Source: a virus. From it: DNA of 64,000 nucleotides. This document shows, piece by piece, positions 211 to 57,320 of the stretch (position 1 is the first letter of the stretch; every line of letters starts with the position of its first letter). The stretch is from IMG/VR virus record IMGVR_UViG_3300047160_036265; one strand, written 5' to 3'. The position numbers and the translations under genes are program-made. A model generated the notes under the pieces. The model made no database searches, was not told the DNA's origin, and was given only the letters and a program-made list of their open reading frames with translations.

Positions 211-1563
211 TTATCGTGGCCGCAGCAAGGGGAAAAGGATCACATCCCGGATGCTGGCCTGGTCGGTCAAAATGGCGACCAGGCGATCAATCCCCAATCC
301 CATGCCTCCGGCGGGCGGCATTCCGCACTTCAGGGCTTCCACAAACTCCCGGTCCATGACGTGACCGCCCAGCCCCGCCTGCGCACGGAACGCCACAAGT
401 TGCGCGTCAGGATCGTTGTTCTCGGTATATCCTGGGGCGATCTCCTGCCCGGCCATCACAAACTCGAACATCTCGGCATAACCGAAGTAGTCCTTGCTCT
501 CCTTGGCCAGCGGCACTTCGGTCATCGGCAAGTGGGTCACAAACGTGGGCTGCACCAGGGTTTGCTCAACGTGCTGCTCGTAGTGGTCGTACTTCTCCTG
601 GGGATTATTGCCCGGCAGGTCTGGAATGCGCACAACCCGAAACGGCTTTTCCAGGTCGATGACCTTCCCCTGATACTCGAACTGCATCTTGTCGTACAAC
701 AGCAAGCAGCACTTGCGCACCAGGGACGCCACCAGTTCCATCATGCGTTCGTAATTTGCAAATGCGCAGTAGGCTTCGAGGGAAGTGAACTCCGGGTTAT
801 GCTTCGGGCTGATGCCCTCGTTGCGGAAGTTGCGCCCAATTTCAAAAACCTTGTCGAAGCCGCCGATGAGGAGCCGCTTGAGATATAGCTCCGGGGCGAT
901 GCGCATGTACACGGTCATGTCCAGACCGTTATAGAACGTCGTAAATGGCCGGGCCACGGCCCCGCCGGCACTGGCCTGCATGATCGGCGTCTCAACCTCG
1001 ATATAATCCATCTCGGTGAGGTACTGCCGAATACGCCGGATTAGCAGCGAGCGGTTCTTCATAACCGCCATGACTTCTGGCGTCCACAAATCCTGGTGCC
1101 GGTTCCGGTAGCGGGTTTCCTGGTCCCGAAGGCCATCCCGCTTGTCGGGGGGCGGGAGCAGGGCCTTGGAGGCAATCTCGAACTCGTTGACCCAGATGGT
1201 GATTTCGCCGGTCTGGGTAGCACACAGGTTGCCCGTAGCGACGATAATATCACCCAGGTCCAGGTTCTTGACGAGGGTTCGCAGCGTCTCGGTAAGACGC
1301 TGGTGGTCGAAGGCCAACTGGATATTGCCGCTTGAGTCGGTGAGTGTGACGAAGCCCAGCTTGCCCATGCCACGACGCAGGAGGATGCGGCCAGCCACGG
1401 TGAAGACCGGGCCGGTTTCCTTGTCGCAGTCCTCGGCGTTATAGGCGTGGCGGACGGCGTGAATCGGTGTGAAATGAGCCAGGGGGTCAAAGGAGTACGG
1501 GTCGAGGCCCAGCCCCTTGATGACTTCCAGCTTCTTGCGACGGTCTGCTTCGTGTTCAGTCAT
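211..1563 (-). CDS. lysS: lysyl-tRNA synthetase, class II
   Basis: 450-aa ORF with an N-terminal OB anticodon-binding region and class II motifs (FRNEGIS..HNPEFT, GGMGLGIDRLVAIL); full-length similarity to bacterial LysS. Confidence 0.9.
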   Translation of the reverse strand: MTEHEADRRKKLEVIKGLGLDPYSFDPLAHFTPIHAVRHAYNAEDCDKETGPVFTVAGRILLRRGMGKLGFVTLTDSSGNIQLAFDHQRLTETLRTLVKNLDLGDIIVATGNLCATQTGEITIWVNEFEIASKALLPPPDKRDGLRDQETRYRNRHQDLWTPEVMAVMKNRSLLIRRIRQYLTEMDYIEVETPIMQASAGGAVARPFTTFYNGLDMTVYMRIAPELYLKRLLIGGFDKVFEIGRNFRNEGISPKHNPEFTSLEAYCAFANYERMMELVASLVRKCCLLLYDKMQFEYQGKVIDLEKPFRVVRIPDLPGNNPQEKYDHYEQHVEQTLVQPTFVTHLPMTEVPLAKESKDYFGYAEMFEFVMAGQEIAPGYTENNDPDAQLVAFRAQAGLGGHVMDREFVEALKCGMPPAGGMGLGIDRLVAILTDQASIRDVILFPLLRPR

Positions 1564-8374: not shown

Positions 8375-9151
8375 TCAGTCCGAAAGTAACTCCATTTCTT
8401 CGGGCAGAAGGCCGCAGGTGGAATACCACCATTCGGGCGACTTATCCTTGTGGCGCTTCCACATGCGCTTGGCCCGATATAACGTAACTCGCCGCTTCTC
8501 CTCTTGCTCTTTGAGCCAGTCATCAAACACGAACCGCTCCGTACCGTCGAGGTATTTCAACATGCGCCGGAGCAACCGCTGGCAAATATATTCCCTGCCC
8601 TTGCAGCCCGGTTTGATGCCGTTGCGGTACATCATTTCAAGAGTGCGTACATGATCGGCAACCACAGGATGGTGGCGGATGAAAAGAGAAGTATCGTGTA
8701 TATTTTGCTTCTGCTCCACAAGAAGATGAAGGCGTTCCCAACCAAACCCCACGTCAGTAGAATGACCAAGAGGGTTGACGAGATTGCCAATTTCCAGCCC
8801 CCGACTGAAGACTTCACAGCAATGCCCGCCGATATTCCCATCAGACCACACACAATCAGGGTCATCAACAACGGGATAACCTCGTTTAACCCAAAGCTGT
8901 TTGTGGTCGGGCCGGTCGGGGTGGACATGAATGCAGTCAACTTTAATGGCGAGGTCCGTCAGCAGGCAGTGCCAAAGCTCGACGCTGATTTCGTAGTCGT
9001 TGCCGCCAAACGAAAAATTACCAAGCATCTCGAAGTAAGTGAGATGCTGGCCGTCGCCCACAAGTTCTAAATCGTTCGTGCGGACACAGGATTGCAGGGA
9101 GCCGTGCTTGCTCCCGTCTGGATTTAAGAATCTGTTCTTGACCCTCTGCAT
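8375..9151 (-). CDS. alanyl-tRNA synthetase catalytic-core-like fragment protein
   Basis: SCVRTNDLELVGDGQHLTYFEMLGNFSFGG matches AlaRS QRCVRAGGKHNDLENVG..HHTFFEMLGNFSFGDYFK; GGHCCEVF..LEIGNLV matches GPCGPCSEI..IEIWNLVF. Lacks the FTNAGM N-terminus and all C-terminal domains. Confidence 0.55.
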   Translation of the reverse strand: MQRVKNRFLNPDGSKHGSLQSCVRTNDLELVGDGQHLTYFEMLGNFSFGGNDYEISVELWHCLLTDLAIKVDCIHVHPDRPDHKQLWVKRGYPVVDDPDCVWSDGNIGGHCCEVFSRGLEIGNLVNPLGHSTDVGFGWERLHLLVEQKQNIHDTSLFIRHHPVVADHVRTLEMMYRNGIKPGCKGREYICQRLLRRMLKYLDGTERFVFDDWLKEQEEKRRVTLYRAKRMWKRHKDKSPEWWYSTCGLLPEEMELLSD

Positions 9152-9496
9152 ACCAGAGCAAATGAAGAGGGTGGAGGGATCATCGGGAATGATATTCGAG
9201 TCGATGGTGAGGGGAAACCCGAACTGCCCGAAGCGGTCCAGAACTAATTCGTAGCAAGGCGGCGCATATCTATCCTCCAGGTTAGGGTGTTATAGCACAA
9301 AAATAGTCCGGTTCAAGTCCAATAGTCCGGCACCGAAAGCCATAGTCACTGGATTAGGCTCTCTGTCATCCTTTGTGGGACTTCCCTACTCCTGTCATTC
9401 ACCCTTGCGGGATACGGTTATTCCTGACAGTTTCAAGCCAGTGAAACCAGTCCTGTACCACCCGACCAGCGGGCGGTGCCGAACGTAGGCCCTGGT

Positions 9497-9585
9497 CGGT
9501 AGGCCAGTGGGCGGTGAGGGAGTCGAACCCTCACTGAGCCGGCAGTTTTGAACCCTGCGCTCGATCTCAGCAGGCGCAATTGGTC
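9497..9585 (-). tRNA. tRNA-like element (uncertain)
   Basis: T-arm GUGAGGGUUCGACUCCCUCAC present; acceptor and anticodon arms are not canonical. Confidence 0.3.
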
Positions 9586-9622
9586 TATGACGGTCTTGCC
9601 GGTTATCAGGCTCCTGCCCGCC

Positions 9623-9979
9623 CTATTGCACCAACTTGATGAACTGGCGCTGGAGCTTGGGTATCGGACATCCCGGAAAAGACGCCCGAACTTCATCGCT
9701 GATTTCCTGCACGGGGCCGACGCCGAAGAAGGCCCACAGCCACTCCTGCCACTCCTCCTCCGTCAAGTCACGTTTGGGCGTCACCGACAAATGCCACGCT
9801 GCCTTGGTTATTGTAGGCGTGACTCGGCAGATGTCGAAGGAGAAGACAGTCTCAACGATTTGGTCGCCGTAGGCGATATTACGGGCACAGCACTCCGGGA
9901 CAATGAAATGCTTCTCCTGGTCATGGGGGTTCTGCTGGGCGACCAAGGCCATGTCGTTGGCGATTGTGCGCAAGTCCAT
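9623..9979 (-). CDS. hypothetical protein
   Basis: 118-aa ORF on the gene strand. Confidence 0.4.
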   Translation of the reverse strand: MDLRTIANDMALVAQQNPHDQEKHFIVPECCARNIAYGDQIVETVFSFDICRVTPTITKAAWHLSVTPKRDLTEEEWQEWLWAFFGVGPVQEISDEVRASFPGCPIPKLQRQFIKLVQ

Positions 9980-10430: not shown

Positions 10431-10898
10431 TTACTTGATTGTGACAGTCGCTCCGGCGGCAGCCAGCTTCGCCTTGATCTTTTCGGCTTCTTCACGGCTC
10501 ACGCCCTCCTTGACGGTAGCGGGCGCTTTTGTGACGGCTTCCATCGACTCCTTCAGGCCCATGCCGGTAATCTCGCGCCACACCTTCACGACCCCCACCT
10601 TCTGGGTCATGTCGAGAACGCCCTCCACCACCACCGCAAACTCGGTCTGCTCTGGGGCCTTTTCCGGGGCCTGCTCTGGCTTCTGCTGGTCGGGAACGAT
10701 AAAGCCCGACGACGCCGGCTTGATGCCGTGGACTTCTTCGAGGTACTGGCTGAGGGCCACAGCCTCGGTGAGCGTGAGATTGGCGATGGCGTCACCAATC
10801 TGCACAACATCCTCGCTCCATTCATCCGGCGTGCCAATAGCGATGGAAACCCCGCCGCCCTTGTCGCCGCTGCCCTGAACTTCTGGTTCGTTCATCAA
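10431..10898 (-). CDS. rplL: ribosomal protein bL12 (L7/L12) homolog
   Basis: C-terminal domain [55 protein letters not shown] closely matches the L7/L12 CTD; N-terminal dimerisation-like helix and an Ala/Pro/Glu hinge. Confidence 0.7.
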
Positions 10899-12742: not shown

Positions 12743-12835
12743 CTCGTCAGGCAGGACTCGAACCTGCAACCTGGCGGTTAAGTTAAGGTCTGTCAGGACC
12801 AACAGCCGCCTGCTCTACCATTGAGCTACTGACGA
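12743..12835 (-). tRNA. tRNA-Asn(GUU)-like with about 21-nt insertion in the anticodon arm
   Basis: Acceptor UCGUCAG/CUGACGA, D-arm GCUC-AAUGGUA-GAGC, T-arm GCAGG-UUCGAGU-CCUGC; anticodon stem GGCGG/CCGCC encloses 28 nt (CUGUUGG plus a GGUC-CUGACA-GACC hairpin). Confidence 0.5.
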
Positions 12836-24682: not shown

Positions 24683-25861
24683 TTAAGCCAAAACTTCGGT
24701 GACAACGCCCGATCCGATGGTTTTCCCACCCTCACGGATGGCGAAGTGGCTGCCCACTTCCAGGGCGATGGGCTTCTCCAGCAGAACCTCCAGGGTCGCG
24801 TTGTCGCCCGGCAGGATCATTTCGATGGGCGGCACCAGCTTCATCTCCCCGGTCACGTCCGTGGTACGGAAGAAGAACTGCGGCTTGTAGCCGTCCATGA
24901 ACGGCGTGTGCCGCCCGCCCTCTTCCTTGCTCAAGACGTAGACTTCGGACAGGAACTTGGTCTGGGGCTTGATCGTCCGTGGGGCTGCAAGCACCTGGCC
25001 CCGCTCGATCTCGTCGTTCTTGACCCCTCGCAGGAGCAAGCCGACGTTCTGGCCGGCGACCGCCTCATCAAGCGGTTGCTTGAACGCCTCGACGCTGACC
25101 ACCACGACCTCGCGCATCTCGCCCAGGCCCAGGATTTCCACCTTGCCGCCTGGCCGGATGCTGCCCTGCTCGATCTTGCCCGTCGCCACGGTGCCCCGAC
25201 CGACAATCGAGTGTACGCCTTCGACGTACATCAGGAAGGGGCGGTCCATCTTGCGCACCGGGTCCGGGATGTACGAGTCCAGGGCTTCCAGCAACTCGTT
25301 GATGCAGCGGGTGGCGTCCGGGTCGGTCGGATCGTCCAGAGCGCCCTTGGCGTTGCCACGGACCACCGGCGTCTTGTCGCCGTCGAATCCGAACTTCGTC
25401 AGAAGCTCCCTGGTTTCCATCTCGACCAGTTCGATGATTTCGGGGTCGTTGACCAGATCGACCTTGTTGATGAACACCACGATGTCAGGCACACCGACCT
25501 GACGGGCCAGCAGAATATGCTCCTTGGTCTGCGGCATCGGGCCGTCCGCAGCCGACAGCAGCAAGATCGCCCCGTCCATCTGCGCCGCACCCGTAATCAT
25601 GTTCTTCACATAATCGGCGTGTCCGGGGCAATCGACGTGGGCGTAGTGCCGCTTGGCGGTTTCGTACTGGACGTGGCTGGTGATGATGGTGACGGTTTTA
25701 TTTTCGTCACGCACCGTGCCACCCTTGGCGATGTCCTTGTAGCTTTTGACTTTCGCCAAGCCCTTCTTGGCCTGAACCGCCAGGATCGCAGCGGTCAGGG
25801 TCGTCTTCCCGTGGTCGATGTGACCAATCGTTCCGACGTTGACGTGAATCTTCTCCGACAT
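24683..25861 (-). CDS. tuf: translation elongation factor Tu
   Basis: [17 protein letters not shown] (G1), [49 protein letters not shown] (G3), NKVD (G4); full-length 392-aa EF-Tu with domains 2 and 3. Confidence 0.9.
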
Positions 25862-40858: not shown

Positions 40859-40952
40859 TACGGAGGGATGGAGTTGAACCACCGACCCTTAGTGCGCTGA
40901 CAAGGTTGCCCTCGCCCCGCTTTCCAATGCTCTGCCGTTGAGCTACCTCCGC
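40859..40952 (-). tRNA. tRNA with about 22-nt extra sequence between D- and T-arms; anticodon unresolved
   Basis: Acceptor GCGGAGG/CCUCCGU, D-arm GCUC-AACGGCA-GAGC, T-arm GGUGG-UUCAACU-CCAUC. Confidence 0.4.
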
Positions 40953-51569: not shown

Positions 51570-53483
51570 TTAGGCGATCTTGTACTTCGCCCGCAGGACT
51601 TCCAGCGGCGGCACTTCCTTGGCCTCGCCCTGCTCCTGCTCGCCCAGGCCCTCGCAGTCAGCGATGATGTTGACCAGCTTCTCCGACCAGCCGGACAGCA
51701 GGTGGGTCTGCTTGTCGGTCGGCTTCACCTGAGCCTGGCCGTGGCCGTTCAGGTTGATGCTGTACACCTTGCACTGCGCGTTGACCTTCTGGCGGTAGTC
51801 GGCGCACATCGACTGCACGCTCATCCCCTTGAAGTGGTCCTTGCCGCCGTGGCACAGGTTGGCGTTCCCCTGCGTGTAGCAGCAGAAGTCACTCATGATG
51901 ATGATGCGGTCAACGTGGAGCTTCTTGTCCGTGATGTCCTTGAGGCCCCACCACAGACCCGTCTCCGTGCCGCCGCCCACACCACCGCCGTAGCGGTTGC
52001 TGCCCAGGCCACCGTGGGTCTTCGGGTCGTCGCTCTGGGCGCACTTCTTCACCTGCTCGTGGATCGCCAGGCAGGTGTCAGCCTGGCTGAACGGCACCCA
52101 CACCAGCATGTCACCGAACACGCCGATCTTCACGCGACGGCCCAGCTTCTTCGCCAGGACGGCCATCAGCATGTTGCCGGCGTCGGCAACCACCAGCCGG
52201 GACTTGGCGCTCGTGGCGCAGCCCGTGGCCGAACCGGAGTTGTCCGTCAGGACCACCGTGATGCCCGGCAAGTCGGCAATGTTGTTGCACGCCTGGTCCA
52301 GCTTCAGGTCGATCACCGTCTTGGCTTCCGTCGTGGAAACCTCGTTCTTGGCGGTGAACCACCGGAACGGAAGCTGCACAGAGTCTTCCTTGCCCTGAAG
52401 CTTCTCGTAGACCTTGCTCCACAGAGCATCGCTGATCTTGGCCTGCTCGAAGTTGCGCAGGTTGCGGGTAAGGGCCATCTCGCCCATCATCGGGATGCAC
52501 AGTTCCCAGACTTCCTTGCTGGAACCCAGGTGCGACAGCACGTTCTCCCAGGTCAGACCGGCCAGGCGCAGGAAGTCCGGGGTCACGCCCAAGGCCGGGA
52601 GGCCCTGCGCAGCCACGTCCTTCTTGTCGAGGCCGAAGAACTTCTTCCGGGCCTGGAGCAGCGGCGACGAGTTACCGTCCACCACGCCGTTCACCAGGAA
52701 GTCGAACAGGCTCTTGGACACGGGCCAGCCCACGTCCTTGTTCTGCTCGTGTTCGCCCTGCTCGTCCTGCACCTTCACAGTGACGGTGCTGATGCTGCCG
52801 GCCTTGGCCAGCTTCTTGTGCTTGGAGCCACGGAGCATCTTCAGCAGGTCGGCGTAGTTCGGGCGCTCCGTGGTGTCGTACTTCAGGATTTCGTATTCCG
52901 AGAACCGGGCGATGGCGGCGCACAGCGCCTTGCGCAGCGCGTGCGGCAGCGCACCCTTGTGGCGTGGCTTCGAGCGCTGGTACAGGTGGCGGAAGGCCGC
53001 AAACACCTGGAGCGGTTCATCGGCACGGTCCATGATCCGTGGGCCGTACTTGGCCAGGAACGGACGGGTCTTCTCGTTCGCCGCAGCGACCACCAGCATC
53101 ATCTGCGGGGTGGTGCGCAGGCGCAGGCCCTCCGTCTTGTCGCGTGCCCAGGACGCGATAATGAACAAGTCTTCCGGGTGATCGCCCTTGGCGACCGCCT
53201 GAGCCGTCTCGATGACTTCCTGGGCCTGCTCGGTCAAGCCGACCTCGTTGACGATCTTGGACTCGATGCGCCCGACCGTGGTAAGCTCCGTGATGAAAGC
53301 TTCATAGTCACGGTTGGAGTCGTAATACTTCGGCTCGTTGAAGAACCCGCCGCCGATGGTGTGCATCAGCTTCACGGCAGGGTCGTTGATCTCGTAGGCA
53401 ACGCCTGGAACATGCTTGTGGGCCACCTGCTCCTCAGCAGCAGCCTTGTGGACATCCTTCTTCTCGAAAGCGAACTTGGACAT
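51570..53483 (-). CDS. rsr: Ro60/Rsr-like protein (TROVE + vWA domains)
   Basis: Start at MSKFAFEK, preceded by GGAGAGGAGAG. IGGGFFNEPKYY resembles the Ro60 GSEGGTYY segment; helical-repeat N-terminal region; C-terminal vWA with MIDAS ITVVLTDNSGSATG; about 640 aa. Confidence 0.5.
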   Translation of the reverse strand: MSKFAFEKKDVHKAAAEEQVAHKHVPGVAYEINDPAVKLMHTIGGGFFNEPKYYDSNRDYEAFITELTTVGRIESKIVNEVGLTEQAQEVIETAQAVAKGDHPEDLFIIASWARDKTEGLRLRTTPQMMLVVAAANEKTRPFLAKYGPRIMDRADEPLQVFAAFRHLYQRSKPRHKGALPHALRKALCAAIARFSEYEILKYDTTERPNYADLLKMLRGSKHKKLAKAGSISTVTVKVQDEQGEHEQNKDVGWPVSKSLFDFLVNGVVDGNSSPLLQARKKFFGLDKKDVAAQGLPALGVTPDFLRLAGLTWENVLSHLGSSKEVWELCIPMMGEMALTRNLRNFEQAKISDALWSKVYEKLQGKEDSVQLPFRWFTAKNEVSTTEAKTVIDLKLDQACNNIADLPGITVVLTDNSGSATGCATSAKSRLVVADAGNMLMAVLAKKLGRRVKIGVFGDMLVWVPFSQADTCLAIHEQVKKCAQSDDPKTHGGLGSNRYGGGVGGGTETGLWWGLKDITDKKLHVDRIIIMSDFCCYTQGNANLCHGGKDHFKGMSVQSMCADYRQKVNAQCKVYSINLNGHGQAQVKPTDKQTHLLSGWSEKLVNIIADCEGLGEQEQGEAKEVPPLEVLRAKYKIA

Positions 53484-53568
53484 GATGACTCTCCTCTCCA
53501 ACTCAGCAGGGACCAGAGATAATATCGGCAGGAGTCCCGGCCCATAACAATAGGGCCGGTAAAACGGT

Positions 53569-53593
53569 GAAGTAACCCCCACCTGCACCTTCC
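53569..53593. repeat. repeat family A copy upstream of rsr
   Basis: gaagtaacccccacctgcaccttcc. Confidence 0.55.
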
Positions 53594-56105: not shown

Positions 56106-57320
56106 CTACCGAGTGACGTAGACCGACGCCTTCCCCTCCATGTTGCTGTCCTGCACCTGCCAGCCCTGGGCAACGATCTGATCCCGCACCGCATCGGCCT
56201 CGGCCCACTTCCGTTCGTCCCGTAGCGCAGCCCGCCGTGCGGCCAGTTCCTTTATGTCCTGCGGCACTTCATAATGTTCGACCTTGAATCCCAGCACGTC
56301 CGCCATCATCTTCGACGGCTCCCGGTGCAACTCGGCCAGGGCCACCGGCGTATTCAGGTCTTCGTCCATCGCCTCGATAAAGCCCTTGGTCATTCCCTCG
56401 GCGGGGGCGTTCAGAAGTTTATTGCGCAGGCTGCGCCACTGCAAATAGCACTGGTGGAAGCCGTACTGGTCGAGCGGCTGGCGATAATGGGCCTGAAGAA
56501 TCCAAAATCGCAGCATGTTCGGGTCGATCTGCTGCGCCCGCAGGTCGCGCAAATAAATAGCGTTGCCCTCGGACTTGCCCATCTTCTTGCCACGATTTTC
56601 AACAAAACCGTTGTGCAGCCAAATGGCGGCGAGCGGCTTGCCAATCAGCGATTCGCTAATAGCGATCTCGTTCTCATGGTGGGGGAATATCAGGTCGCAG
56701 CCACCGCAGTGAATATCGACGCTGCCGCCCAGCAACTCCTTGATAAAGACGGCGCACTCGGTATGCCAGCCTGGCCGACCCGCCACGAACATCTTCTTGT
56801 CCTCCTGGTTATTCTTCCAGAGGTAGAAGTCCTCGCAGGTCGTGTGGCCGGACAACTGGCCGTAGTTTTTGAAATTCTGACCGTGGAAGCGCACTCCATC
56901 CGCAACTTCGTAGGCCAGGCCCTTGACCAGCATCTCATTGACCCAGCCGGCCATCGCCCAGAAATACTTGGTCACACGGGGGTAGGCGTCAGCCCGCTGG
57001 ACGTTGAGCCAGTCGAAGTCCTCGAAATAAGAATCAATGTACTTGTCGCCCACCTGCTCGCAGGTGCAATGGTCCTGGCGGGCACGCTCGATGATCTTGT
57101 CGTCAATGTCCGTGAAGTTCTGGACGTACTTCACGGGGCGACCACGAAACTCCAGCCACCGACGCAGCACGTCCCAGGTGATGTACGACCGGGCATGGCC
57201 AATATGGCAGTAGTCATACGGTGTTACACCGCAGGCGTAAACCTGGAGCGCCCCATTGAGGATGCCGATATTGGGCAGGAAGTCAAGTTGCTTGGTCAGC
57301 GTGTTATAAAGCCGGATCAT
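56106..57320 (-). CDS. cysS: cysteinyl-tRNA synthetase
   Basis: YACGVTPYDYCHIGHARS (HIGH), DIHCGGCDLIFPHHENEIA, KMGKSEGN (KMSKS), FIEAMDEDLNTPVAL match CysS throughout; 404 aa. Confidence 0.85.
   Translation of the reverse strand: MIRLYNTLTKQLDFLPNIGILNGALQVYACGVTPYDYCHIGHARSYITWDVLRRWLEFRGRPVKYVQNFTDIDDKIIERARQDHCTCEQVGDKYIDSYFEDFDWLNVQRADAYPRVTKYFWAMAGWVNEMLVKGLAYEVADGVRFHGQNFKNYGQLSGHTTCEDFYLWKNNQEDKKMFVAGRPGWHTECAVFIKELLGGSVDIHCGGCDLIFPHHENEIAISESLIGKPLAAIWLHNGFVENRGKKMGKSEGNAIYLRDLRAQQIDPNMLRFWILQAHYRQPLDQYGFHQCYLQWRSLRNKLLNAPAEGMTKGFIEAMDEDLNTPVALAELHREPSKMMADVLGFKVEHYEVPQDIKELAARRAALRDERKWAEADAVRDQIVAQGWQVQDSNMEGKASVYVTR

What the first reader, a model, noticed from the sequence alone, without database searches (positions are those of the whole stretch)
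8375..9151. Stand-alone AlaRS catalytic-core-like protein lacking motif 1 and all C-terminal domains
The 258-aa ORF aligns to the AlaRS region around ..RCVRAGGKHNDLENVG..HHTFFEMLGNFSFGDYFK.. and GPCGPCSEI..IEIWNLVFMQ, but starts after the FTNAGM segment and ends before the tRNA-recognition, editing and C-Ala domains. It could be a truncated pseudo-synthetase, a tRNA-binding decoy, or a domain that aminoacylates a non-tRNA substrate. About 340 nt of noncoding leader lie upstream.
Basis: partly seen in the sequence, partly recalled or inferred. Interest (0 to 1): 0.65.

Follow-up and report, generated by a model that had tools for sequence, protein, structure and literature searches.

The report
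Miniature phage AlaRS with frameshifted start
This huge-phage gene encodes a roughly 297-residue, stripped-down alanyl-tRNA synthetase that keeps every catalytic residue, and its translation appears to need a -1 ribosomal frameshift at an alanine codon, which would let the gene sense the supply of its own product.

Summary
The ORF and its AlaRS similarity are real (Pfam PF01411, E=2e-26). "Lacking motif 1" is an ORF-calling artefact. The frame stays open 46 codons upstream of ATG 9151, and those codons encode the AlaRS N-terminal helix and motif 1.

The product (~297 aa) models confidently (pLDDT 89) as a miniaturised AlaRS aminoacylation domain: a trimmed catalytic core plus a trimmed tRNA-recognition bundle. 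There is no editing or C-Ala domain. Eight Ala/ATP-site residues are invariant in 32/32 relatives.

The family has over 500 metagenomic members. It sits in tRNA arrays of huge phages, often beside tRNA-Ala with G3:U70. The window has one such tRNA.

The upstream extension has no in-frame ATG/GTG/TTG start. A GGAGG-ATG lies in the +1 frame, followed by "C CTT GCT" and a stop. Thirty-five loci across deep clades share this design: an out-of-frame start, then "X XYZ GCN" with an invariant Ala codon. Seven lineages also have a stem-loop 4-5 nt downstream.

Best reading: a working mini-AlaRS made by -1 frameshifting at a "hungry" Ala codon, giving RF2-like feedback. The frameshift is inferred from sequence, not demonstrated. 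The ~330-nt upstream leader is a conserved structured RNA of unknown function.

The parts
9274..9278 (-). Shine-Dalgarno GGAGG. It lies 6 nt upstream of the out-of-frame ATG and 14 nt upstream of the shift site.
   Evidence: Read from sequence. Conserved at nucleotide level in window, L001, L003, L041, L042, L046 and L047 even where the flanking sequence has diverged. The 14-nt spacing falls in the 9-14 nt range reported for SD stimulation of -1 frameshifting (PMC5009743).
9244..9267 (-). 0-frame mini-ORF ATG CGC CGC CTT GCT ACG AAT TAG (MRRLATN*). It is in the +1 frame relative to the AlaRS-like frame.
   Evidence: Equivalent mini-ORFs of 3-20 codons occur in 35 loci.
9253..9259 (-). Proposed -1 shift site C CTT GCT. 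The P-site Leu codon CTT re-pairs to CCT, and the A-site codon is Ala GCT.
   Evidence: All 35 class-B loci have an 'X XYZ GCN' motif. In 34 of 35, X equals the first base of the P codon, and the A-site codon is always Ala.
8375..9256 (-). -1 frame ORF (TGC...TGA). It gives 293 codons and, with the MRRL leader, a predicted 297-aa mini-AlaRS.
   Evidence: Synonymous-type substitutions versus L001 in the 9152-9256 part show that it is translated in this frame.
9152..9256 (-). N-terminal helix, first strand and motif 1 (..IIPDDPSTLFICSG).
   Evidence: Aligns to AlaRS residues 9-43. Modelled as H2-10 and E15-18.
8684..9253 (-). Trimmed class II catalytic core. R69 equivalent at 9082-9080, N212 equivalent at 8785-8783, D235 equivalent at 8755-8753.
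   Evidence: hhalign probability 99.6-99.9 to AlaRS. Equivalents of R69, W170, E209, N212, V214, D235, G237 and R242 are invariant in 32/32 relatives. The AGGKH (K73) loop and three surface insertions are deleted.
8378..8683 (-). Trimmed helical tRNA-recognition domain (VVADHVR..PGCKGREYICQRLLRRM..WWYSTCGLLPEE).
   Evidence: pLDDT 90-96. Foldseek alignment spans ~400 columns of the 441-aa E. coli fragment, TM 0.80-0.83. Greedy hhalign reaches AlaRS residue 414.
9319..9514 (-). Core of a conserved structured leader RNA of unknown function.
   Evidence: More conserved than the CDS between relatives. Four distinct sequences give 51 predicted pairs, 6 of them with compensatory double changes. No Rfam family matches.
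9509..9623 (-). Hairpin GGGCGG/CCGCCC carrying an inserted tRNA-like module (T arm at 9516-9532).
   Evidence: The insert is absent in L047. ARAGORN does not call it as a tRNA or tmRNA. It has G3:C70, not G3:U70.
30830..30900 (-). Phage tRNA-Ala(GGC)-like gene with G3:U70 and A73, the presumed substrate. Its anticodon would read the GCU sensor codon by wobble.
   Evidence: Rfam tRNA 48.6 bits. Sequence read. ARAGORN missed it (C33).

Best explanation
The locus encodes a miniaturised but catalytically complete alanyl-tRNA synthetase of about 297 aa. It comprises a trimmed class II catalytic core plus a trimmed acceptor-stem recognition bundle, with no editing and no C-Ala domain. It belongs to the translation toolkit of a huge phage whose host is probably a Planctomycete.

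Proposed mechanism:
- The enzyme makes Ala-AMP and transfers alanine to tRNA-Ala through the acceptor stem. The phage carries its own G3:U70/A73 tRNA-Ala.
- Ribosomes start at the SD-ATG at 9267, which is out of frame.
- After MRRL, the peptidyl-tRNA-Leu sits on CUU with the Ala codon GCU in the A site.
- If Ala-tRNA-Ala arrives quickly, translation stays in the 0 frame and stops three codons later.
- If the A site stays empty because charged tRNA-Ala is scarce, the P-site tRNA slips -1 (C CUU to CCU). The still-engaged SD 14 nt upstream would help this. The ribosome then reads the synthetase frame.
- Output therefore rises when Ala-tRNA-Ala falls, which is negative feedback with the logic of RF2 (prfB).

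Shown by the data: homology, fold, conserved active site, family distribution, absence of an in-frame ATG/GTG/TTG start, and the conserved out-of-frame start with the X XYZ GCN motif.

Inferred, not shown: that frameshifting occurs, its direction, its dependence on Ala-tRNA, and tRNA charging activity.
For: Enzyme:
- Pfam PF01411 E=1.9e-26; hhalign probability 99.6-99.9 to AlaRS 9-414.
- AF2 model pLDDT 89.4, pTM 0.85; Foldseek TM 0.80-0.83 to the E. coli, human and A. aeolicus AlaRS aminoacylation fragments.
- Equivalents of R69, W170, E209, N212, V214, D235, G237 and R242 are invariant in 32/32.
- The N303 equivalent is Asn in 16/32 and the D400 equivalent is Asp/Glu in 21/32.

Family and context:
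- 553 homologues, mostly 257-320 aa.
- 38 IMG/VR loci, many on contigs over 100 kb and up to 608 kb, embedded in tRNA arrays and often next to tRNA-Ala with G3:U70.
- The window also encodes 48 or more tRNAs, an Asp/Asn/Lys-type aaRS, CysRS, EF-Tu and L7/L12, plus a G3:U70 tRNA-Ala.

Recoding:
- In the window the synthetase frame is closed by TAA 12 codons upstream of the shift site and has no ATG/GTG/TTG.
- 24 loci have no in-frame start at all, and in several the in-frame stop lies inside the SD spacer.
- 35 loci from clades as low as ~33% identical have an SD-start in the +1 frame, then 1-4 codons, then X XYZ GCN. The motifs are G GAC (13), C CTT/CTA (8), T TTA/TCC/TCT/TTC (8), A AAC (3), G GAA (2) and C AAA (1).
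- The overlapping synthetase-frame codon is always NGC. It is CGC even in AT-rich phages, and TGC or AGC elsewhere. So the invariant is the 0-frame Ala codon, not a residue of the protein.
- L008 has an in-frame GTG and has lost the Ala codon.
- The 21 class-A loci start with an in-frame ATG; where compared (L014 against L033), that Met aligns one residue after the shift codon.
- A stable stem-loop starts 4-5 nt after the Ala codon in L005, L006, L010, L020, L031, L033 and L045, with z from -2.8 to -5.9.
- The sensor codon is not a rare one: GCC is 58% and GCT 13% of Ala codons here.

Literature:
- SD sequences stimulate -1 frameshifting at 9-14 nt, and one SD acts as both initiator and stimulator in an IS element.
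- For hungry-codon frameshifting yielding functional trans-frame proteins, 'no examples are known' (PMC5009743).
Against: - There is no experimental or proteomic evidence for the frameshift or for aminoacylation.
- The P-site re-pairing is imperfect in most motifs. GAC to GGA, CUU to CCU and UCC to UUC each have a non-Watson-Crick middle position, and one locus (C AAA GCA) breaks the X=first-base rule.
- The window clade lacks a downstream stimulatory hairpin (z=+0.8).
- SD-to-site spacing is 9-19 nt across loci and therefore not always in the 9-14 nt range.
- The window has an in-frame CTG at 9280-9278. Two relatives have ATG (L042) or TTG (L041) there, so some direct initiation is possible.
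- In the window the residues at the two G3:U70-recognition positions are Cys and Ser, not Asn and Asp.
- The K73 loop, implicated in handling the tRNA 3' end in E. coli AlaRS, is deleted family-wide.
- The many loci are not phylogenetically independent. There are about 6 distinct motif types and about 14 distinct mini-ORFs.
Confidence: 0.55

Rival explanations
1. Same mini-AlaRS and same -1 frameshift, but the shift is a constitutive, fixed-efficiency device. It would keep synthetase output low or couple it to a leader peptide, and it would not sense Ala-tRNA. Under this reading the Ala codon is retained for another reason, for example a GC-rich context or a poor competitor in the A site.
For: Strong downstream hairpins with a 4-5 nt spacer in seven lineages and upstream SDs are classic constitutive -1 stimulators (PMC5009743). 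Most known -1 sites are not regulatory.
Against: It does not explain why the A-site codon is Ala in 35/35 loci of an alanine enzyme while the overlapping codon varies among Arg, Cys and Ser. tRNA-Ala cannot re-pair in the -1 frame, so slippage needs an empty A site, which makes efficiency intrinsically dependent on Ala-tRNA arrival.
Confidence: 0.2
2. The protein activates alanine but transfers it to something other than canonical tRNA-Ala. Candidates are a tRNA-like RNA such as the module in its own leader, a tmRNA-like RNA, a carrier protein or a small molecule.
For: The K73 loop and much of the tRNA-recognition domain are deleted. The G3:U70-reading positions are Cys and Ser in the window. 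A tRNA-like module lies directly upstream. A tmRNA lies 2 kb from the homologue in L005. Precedents exist: aa:carrier-protein ligases (PMC9437257) and AcmF (PMC12945691).
Against: The leader module has G3:C70 and is absent from most family loci. The family is embedded in tRNA arrays next to G3:U70 tRNA-Ala genes. No carrier-protein or biosynthetic genes are nearby. The Tupanvirus mini-AlaRS also lacks the Asn/Asp pair yet charges G3:U70 substrates (PMC10036535). An Ala-codon sensor makes most sense if the product is Ala-tRNA-Ala.
Confidence: 0.12
3. There is no frameshift. The out-of-frame SD-ATG mini-ORF is a regulatory uORF, and the synthetase frame is initiated separately. Initiation would be at a non-canonical codon (CTG 9280 in the window) or by termination-reinitiation.
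For: An in-frame CTG (window, L003, L046), TTG (L041) or ATG (L042) sits just 5' of the SD. A TGATG stop-start overlap with an in-frame ATG exists in L046.
Against: 24 loci have no in-frame ATG/GTG/TTG. Several, such as L056-L063 and L045, have an in-frame stop 2-3 codons before the out-of-frame ATG and no near-cognate codon after it. L001 and L047 have CCG or TCG at the 'CTG' position. The position of the 0-frame stop is not conserved, whereas the Ala codon is. This reading also does not explain the X XYZ pattern or the hairpins at a 4-5 nt spacing.
Confidence: 0.1
4. The protein is an inactive remnant or decoy: a pseudo-synthetase that binds tRNA-Ala, or an Ala-tRNA-dependent transferase like AcmF, without activating alanine.
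For: It is very small, lacks the K73 loop, and scores far below the alaS equivalog cut-off (96.5 against 457 bits).
Against: Eight Ala/ATP-site residues are invariant in 32/32, unlike AcmF, which has lost them (PMC12945691). Purifying selection is evident across hundreds of homologues.
Confidence: 0.03

Closest known systems
Bacterial AlaRS aminoacylation domain (E. coli AlaRS 1-441/461; PDB 3hxu; A. aeolicus 1riq)
   Same: Same fold (TM 0.80-0.83). Motifs 1-3 are present, and R69, W170, N212, D235 and G237 equivalents are all kept. The PSNEGRGYVLRRIIRR-type helix and a DTYGFP-like helix are retained. The origin is bacterial-type: TIGR00344 is the best NCBIfam hit.
   Different: About 150 residues shorter. 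The AGGKH (K73) loop, three surface insertions of the core and roughly half of the helical domain are deleted. It ends near residue 414. There is no editing or C-Ala domain. It is a free-standing gene.
Tupanvirus mini-AlaRS (TuAlaRS, 461 aa; PMC10036535)
   Same: [quoted passage not shown] It comes from a virus that carries its own tRNA-Ala with G3:U70.
   Different: [quoted passage not shown] This family is ~165 aa smaller, is of bacterial type, occurs in phages, and has a recoded start. TuAlaRS activity is demonstrated; this family's is not.
Nanoarchaeum equitans split AlaRS alpha subunit (PMC11392972; discussed in PMC10036535)
   Same: [quoted passage not shown]
   Different: The archaeal alpha subunit works with a beta subunit that supplies the rest. 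No partner gene is evident here.
AcmF, AlaRS-like Ala-tRNA-dependent transferase of ascamycin biosynthesis (PMC12945691)
   Same: A truncated AlaRS-like protein with only the aminoacylation and tRNA-recognition regions.
   Different: AcmF lacks most ATP- and alanine-activation residues (N219Q, D232E). This family keeps them all. There is no biosynthetic cluster context.
RF2 (prfB) autoregulatory +1 frameshift (PMC5009743)
   Same: A short ORF1, and a shift at a codon whose decoding depends on the gene's own product. An SD acts as stimulator, and a 0-frame stop follows shortly after. The feedback logic is the same.
   Different: The direction is -1, not +1. The sensed codon is a sense (Ala) codon rather than a stop. 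The SD doubles as the initiation SD. The site lies within the first 3-6 codons.
dnaX / IS911-type bacterial -1 frameshifting (PMC5009743)
   Same: An upstream SD at 9-14 nt (14 nt in the window). A downstream stem-loop at 4-5 nt in seven lineages. IS911 also uses one SD for both initiation and stimulation.
   Different: There is no tandem X XXY YYZ heptamer. Only the P-site tRNA can re-pair, so an empty A site is required.
Leader-peptide attenuation of aaRS and amino-acid operons (e.g. pheST; my own knowledge, not checked here)
   Same: A tiny leader ORF with cognate codon(s) reads out charged-tRNA supply at the ribosome.
   Different: The output here would be a change of reading frame into the enzyme itself, not transcription antitermination.

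Membership tests
Alanyl-tRNA synthetase (class IIc; Pfam PF01411, NCBIfam TIGR00344) | Class II motifs 1, 2 and 3 and the Ala-AMP pocket (R69, W170, N212, D235, G237, motif-3 Arg) | tested here: met
   All are present in the window and invariant in 32/32 relatives. Motif 1 lies upstream of the called ATG.
Alanyl-tRNA synthetase (class IIc; Pfam PF01411, NCBIfam TIGR00344) | Full tRNA-recognition domain with the Asn303/Asp400 pair that reads G3:U70 | tested here: inconclusive
   A trimmed helical domain is present. The positions are Cys and Ser in the window. Across the family they are Asn in 16/32 and Asp/Glu in 21/32. The C-terminal part of the alignment has low confidence.
Alanyl-tRNA synthetase (class IIc; Pfam PF01411, NCBIfam TIGR00344) | Editing domain and C-Ala domain | tested here: not met
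   The ORF ends at the equivalent of residue ~414. AlaRS 462-876 has no similarity anywhere in the window.
Alanyl-tRNA synthetase (class IIc; Pfam PF01411, NCBIfam TIGR00344) | Score above the curated equivalog cut-off | tested here: not met
   TIGR00344 gives 96.5 bits against a cut-off of 457. The Pfam domain cut-off (30.3) is met with 93.2 bits.
Alanyl-tRNA synthetase (class IIc; Pfam PF01411, NCBIfam TIGR00344) | Alanylation of tRNA-Ala | not testable with these tools
   Needs biochemistry. Context only: G3:U70 tRNA-Ala genes lie nearby.
Viral mini-AlaRS (Tupanvirus type) | Intact catalytic plus intact tRNA-recognition domains (~460 aa), with no editing or C-Ala | tested here: not met
   The product is 297 aa and both domains are trimmed. 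Only the absence of editing and C-Ala is shared.
AcmF-type AlaRS-like aminoacyl transferase | Loss of ATP/alanine-activation residues (e.g. N to Q, D to E) | tested here: not met
   The N212 and D235 equivalents are invariant Asn and Asp.
Autoregulatory frameshift genes (RF2-type logic) | A short ORF1 whose continuation in the 0 frame depends on decoding a codon served by the gene product | tested here: met
   The Ala codon is at the shift site in 35/35 class-B loci, and the 0-frame stop follows 0-15 codons later. This is met at sequence level only.
Autoregulatory frameshift genes (RF2-type logic) | Frameshifting demonstrated and responsive to product level | not testable with these tools
   No expression data are available.
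Classical -1 PRF (X XXY YYZ plus downstream structure) | Tandem slippery heptamer | tested here: not met
   Only the P-site codon can re-pair. tRNA-Ala cannot pair with NGC.
Classical -1 PRF (X XXY YYZ plus downstream structure) | Stimulator at the proper spacing (3' stem-loop at 5-9 nt, or 5' SD at 9-14 nt) | tested here: met
   In the window the SD is 14 nt 5' of the site. Stem-loops start 4-5 nt 3' of the site in seven other lineages. The window clade has no 3' structure.
T-box riboswitch (for the leader RNA) | Match to the Rfam T-box model, with Stem I/specifier architecture | tested here: not met
   No T-box hit at E<=10. The only resemblance is a 9-nt identity, GGGUGGUAC, to the T-box core, which I recalled from memory.

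The most novel reading that the evidence does not exclude
The GCN codon in the first few codons is a hungry-codon sensor. -1 frameshifting into the synthetase frame occurs only when the ribosomal A site waits for Ala-tRNA-Ala. The phage therefore makes its minimal, editing-free AlaRS in inverse proportion to charged tRNA-Ala. This would be the first natural case of an aminoacyl-tRNA synthetase autoregulated by cognate-codon frameshifting, and of hungry-codon frameshifting producing a functional protein. It would sit on the smallest natural AlaRS known.
Probability: 0.45. Interest if true: 0.92.

Novelty: new variant of a known kind. Interest (0 to 1): 0.85.

Why it matters
1. A ~295-aa protein that retains the whole alanine-activation site and a remnant of the acceptor-stem reader would be the smallest natural AlaRS module. 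It is about 165 aa shorter than the Tupanvirus mini-AlaRS. It would bear directly on how little protein is needed to read the G3:U70 'operational code', and on minimal or orthogonal translation systems.

2. A conserved out-of-frame start followed by 'X XYZ GCN' in 35 loci points to a programmed -1 frameshift gated by the enzyme's own product. The 2016 recoding review states that no natural example of productive hungry-codon frameshifting is known (PMC5009743). This locus makes that idea directly testable with a 60-nt reporter.

3. Public gene calls for this family are systematically wrong. They either truncate at the Met in motif 1 or extend to spurious GTG/TTG starts. That is why the gene looked like a fragment.

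4. It adds to the evidence that huge phages regulate, and do not merely carry, their own translation components.

Tried and rejected
- **Sequencing error or pseudogene at the start.** Rejected: the same arrangement occurs in dozens of independent assemblies, and the upstream in-frame part shows synonymous-type substitutions.
- **TAA read-through by the UUA-anticodon tRNA at 29738-29809.** This would start the frame at an upstream GTG or ATG. Rejected: TAA terminates many good ORFs here, and the upstream frame is not conserved in L001, L046 or L047.
- **Group I intron, tmRNA (standard or permuted), RNase P RNA, Y RNA or T-box for the leader.** ARAGORN and Rfam give nothing at E<=10. The tRNA-like part has G3:C70. 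The permuted-tmRNA pairing fails in L001.
- **Leader as a necessary part of the gene.** Rejected: L003 and L041-43 have the same MRRLA cassette without it, and my covariance model finds it only in the window.
- **+1 frameshift, T4 gene-60-style bypass, or stop-codon-dependent slippage.** The frame relation is -1 everywhere. Bypass would skip conserved residues. The position of the 0-frame stop is not conserved.
- **Tandem slippage.** tRNA-Ala cannot re-pair in the -1 frame.
- **Generalisation to the neighbouring GluRS/GluQRS-like ~300-aa genes in L041 and L042.** They have ordinary starts.
- **Full alaS reconstituted from neighbouring frames.** There is no editing or C-Ala similarity in the window.
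- **Searches that returned little.** A single-protein scan of viral contigs and two exact DNA-pattern scans found nothing, or only L003's contig.
- **PHROGs.** There is no dedicated family, only a weak hit to an 897-position profile of unknown function.
Full report
**Observation**

The 258-aa ORF at 8375..9151 on the minus strand exists and is AlaRS-like. Pfam PF01411 gives E=1.9e-26, NCBIfam alaS gives 96.5 bits, and PDB AlaRS catalytic fragments give E~1e-16.

The same frame stays open to a TAA at 9292-9290. Codons 9256-9152 read CYELVLDRFGQFGFPLTIDSNIIPDDPSTLFICSG. HMMER, hhalign and tblastn all align this stretch to AlaRS residues ~9-43, which are the N-terminal helix, the first strand and motif 1. 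The called Met is the Met of FTNAGM.

Comparison with the 83%-identical relative L001 shows mostly synonymous changes in this upstream stretch, so it is translated in this frame. Nothing in the window resembles the editing or C-Ala domains, and the downstream gene is a sigma-like factor. A broken full-length alaS is therefore excluded.

**The protein**

An AlphaFold2 model built on 32 relatives is confident (pLDDT 89.4, pTM 0.85). Foldseek places it on the AlaRS aminoacylation fragments of E. coli, human and A. aeolicus, with TM 0.80-0.83 normalised to the query. The alignments span about 400 columns of the 441-aa fragment.

It is therefore not just a catalytic core. The last ~100 residues are a shortened version of the helical tRNA-recognition domain. 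This includes the VIADHIR...PSNEGRGYVLRRIIRR segment. In a greedy profile alignment it also includes a WWxTxG(I/L)LPEE helix opposite LYDTYGFPVDL (low confidence for that last part).

Mapped onto E. coli numbering, the equivalents of R69, W170, E209, N212, V214, D235, G237 and the motif-3 Arg are invariant in 32/32 family members.

The deleted parts are:
- the AGGKH loop that holds K73;
- three surface insertions of the core;
- roughly half of the helical domain.

The two positions that read G3:U70 in canonical AlaRS (Asn303 and Asp400; PMC10036535) are Asn in 16/32 and Asp/Glu in 21/32 relatives. In the window they are Cys and Ser. The Tupanvirus mini-AlaRS also lacks this pair and still charges G3:U70 substrates (PMC10036535). 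AcmF, the other known truncated AlaRS-like enzyme, has lost its activation residues (PMC12945691). This family has not.

**Family and context**

The word-indexed search found 553 homologues. Most are 257-320 aa, and sources name them alanyl-tRNA synthetase or "alanine--tRNA ligase-related protein".

A profile scan of IMG/VR returned 38 loci, many on contigs over 100 kb and up to 608 kb. One is in the published 635-kb phage LR745206.1. The genes are typically embedded in tRNA arrays, frequently beside tRNA-Ala genes that carry G3:U70 and A73. Relatives found in genome collections are on contigs binned with Planctomycetota/Pirellulales MAGs, which suggests the host range.

The window itself is a translation island. 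It has 48 ARAGORN tRNAs, a class II Asp/Asn/Lys-type synthetase, CysRS, EF-Tu, L7/L12 and Ro60. It also has a tRNA-Ala(GGC)-like gene with G3:U70 and A73 at 30830-30900, seen by Rfam but not by ARAGORN.

**The start problem**

In the window the synthetase frame has no ATG, GTG or TTG between the TAA and the motif-1 Met. A perfect GGAGG (9278-9274) followed 6 nt later by ATG (9267-9265) lies in the +1 frame. It opens ATG CGC CGC CTT GCT ACG AAT TAG.

The 30-nt block GGAGGATAGATATGCGCCGCCTTGC is conserved at every third position in relatives whose flanking coding sequence and base composition have diverged.

I then examined every locus I could fetch.

- **Class A, 21 loci.** These have an ordinary in-frame ATG. 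Where compared (L014 against L033), it aligns one residue after the site described below.
- **Class B, 35 loci.** These come from clades as little as ~33% identical to the window protein. They have a start codon in the +1 frame, usually with a GGAGG. It is followed by 1-4 codons and then the pattern X XYZ GCN:
  - G GAC GCN (13 loci)
  - C CTT/CTA GCY (8)
  - T TTA/TCC/TCT/TTC GCC (8)
  - A AAC GCA (3)
  - G GAA GCN (2)
  - C AAA GCA (1)
  
  A 0-frame stop follows 0-15 codons later.

Twenty-four of the class-B loci have no in-frame canonical start. In the Planctomycete-binned group and in LR745206.1 the synthetase frame is closed by a stop only 2-3 codons before the out-of-frame ATG. Initiation in the synthetase frame is not possible there.

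The synthetase-frame codon overlapping the site is always NGC. It is CGC even in AT-rich phages, and TGC or AGC elsewhere. What is conserved is therefore the 0-frame alanine codon, not an amino acid of the enzyme.

L008 has an in-frame GTG and has lost the Ala codon.

In seven lineages a stable stem-loop begins 4-5 nt after the Ala codon, with z from -2.8 to -5.9. By eye, L031 differs from L033 and L045 by a compensatory change at the base of this stem. In the window clade there is no such hairpin, but the SD lies 14 nt 5' of the site. That is inside the 9-14 nt range in which SD pairing stimulates -1 shifting. There is also precedent for one SD acting as both initiator and stimulator (PMC5009743).

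**Mechanism proposed**

Ribosomes initiate at ATG 9267 and make MRRL. With tRNA-Leu on CUU in the P site, the A site shows GCU.

tRNA-Ala cannot re-pair in the -1 frame, so slippage must occur while the A site is empty. The P-site tRNA moves from CUU to CCU. Across loci, the first position is kept and the middle position changes only by a transition. The ribosome then reads UGC UAC GAA... to the TGA at 8377-8375 and yields a 297-aa enzyme.

Fast arrival of Ala-tRNA-Ala keeps the ribosome in the 0 frame, and it terminates three codons later. The codon used is not rare: GCC is 58% and GCU 13% of Ala codons in the window's genes. Slowness would therefore come from low charging, not from low tRNA abundance.

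This is the logic of RF2 autoregulation, applied to a sense codon and a synthetase. It is inference from sequence. No expression data exist.

**Caveats**

- Re-pairing is imperfect in most motifs.
- One locus breaks the X rule.
- SD spacing ranges up to 19 nt.
- The loci are not independent. There are about 6 motif types and about 14 distinct mini-ORFs.
- The window has an in-frame CTG at 9280. This position is ATG or TTG in two relatives but CCG or TCG in two others. It might allow some direct initiation.

**The leader**

The true intergenic stretch (9293-9622) is a conserved structured RNA. Four distinct sequences share a ~196-nt core (9319-9514). It has a long-range helix and several helices with compensatory changes.

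Upstream of the core is a GGGCGG/CCGCCC hairpin. In three of the four sequences it carries a ~105-nt tRNA-like insert with a canonical T arm.

It matches no Rfam family. It is not called as a tRNA or tmRNA. It is absent from other loci that have the same MRRLA cassette. I could not assign a function. A 9-nt identity to the T-box core (GGGUGGUAC) is noted as a lead only.

**Comparison and novelty**

The protein is a new and much smaller variant of AlaRS. It fails membership of the alaS equivalog (no editing or C-Ala domain; 96.5 against 457 bits). It also fails membership of the Tupanvirus-type mini-AlaRS (its domains are not intact) and of the AcmF type (its activation residues are kept).

The held literature lists no stand-alone catalytic AlaRS paralogue of this kind (PMC9437257, PMC7824862). 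It gives no frameshifted synthetase gene. It states that productive hungry-codon frameshifting has no known natural example. The literature search covers only the held open-access library, so prior description elsewhere cannot be excluded.

**Verdict**

The feature is real and mis-described. It is most likely a functional minimal AlaRS of a huge phage, expressed through a conserved -1 frameshift at an alanine codon.

Noticed in passing
window 9293-9622 (-): A conserved structured RNA lies between the upstream 118-aa ORF and the mini-AlaRS start cassette. The core at 9319-9514 has compensatory changes in four relatives. It contains GGGUGGUAC, identical to the T-box core. No Rfam family matches, and it is absent from other loci carrying the same cassette.
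   Followed up: partly
window 9509-9623 (-): A tRNA-like module (T arm GAGGGTTCGACTCCCTC, acceptor-like GGGCGG/CCGCCC with G3:C70, no anticodon arm) is inserted into a hairpin that is plain in relative L047. Its architecture recalls tmRNA or Y-RNA tRNA-like domains. The window also encodes Ro60.
   Followed up: partly
window 30830-30900 (-): A tRNA-Ala(GGC)-like gene with G3:U70 and A73 but C33 instead of U33. Rfam detects it at 48.6 bits and ARAGORN misses it. It is the only tRNA-Ala seen in the window.
   Followed up: partly
window 29738-29809 (-): A tRNA-like gene whose anticodon loop reads CUUUAGA, giving anticodon UUA, complementary to the UAA stop. TAA is nevertheless used as an ordinary stop in the window's long ORFs.
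   Followed up: partly
window 12743-12835 and 40859-40952 (-): Unusually long (93-94 nt) tRNA genes that ARAGORN, in intron mode, models with 21-35 nt insertions.
   Followed up: no
window 211-1563, 10431-10898, 24683-25861, 51570-53588, 56106-57320 (-): A translation island: a class II Asp/Asn/Lys-type aaRS, a ribosomal L7/L12 homologue, EF-Tu, a Ro60/TROVE protein and CysRS, together with at least 48 tRNA genes, all on one strand.
   Followed up: partly
L003 6879-7160; L041 3693-3977; L042 5903-6187; L054 3777-4058: In several relatives a 93-94 aa four-cysteine (CxxC...CxxC) protein gene directly follows, or overlaps the stop of, the mini-AlaRS. No homologue is in the window. It could be a partner protein.
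   Followed up: partly
L041 339-1226; L042 4094-5011: A ~300-aa catalytic-domain-only GluRS/GluQRS-like gene (PF00749) sits immediately upstream of the mini-AlaRS in relatives. It suggests a wider set of miniaturised synthetase-like genes in these phages. These genes have ordinary starts.
   Followed up: partly
L005 9045-9393: A phage-encoded tmRNA (tag DKSYAFLG*) lies about 2 kb downstream of the mini-AlaRS homologue. tmRNA is an AlaRS substrate.
   Followed up: no
public protein records P0001, P0042, P0110, P0116 and others: Gene callers start this family at the Met inside motif 1 (giving 257-262 aa) or at distant GTG/TTG codons. This is a systematic mis-annotation that follows from the out-of-frame start.
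   Followed up: yes
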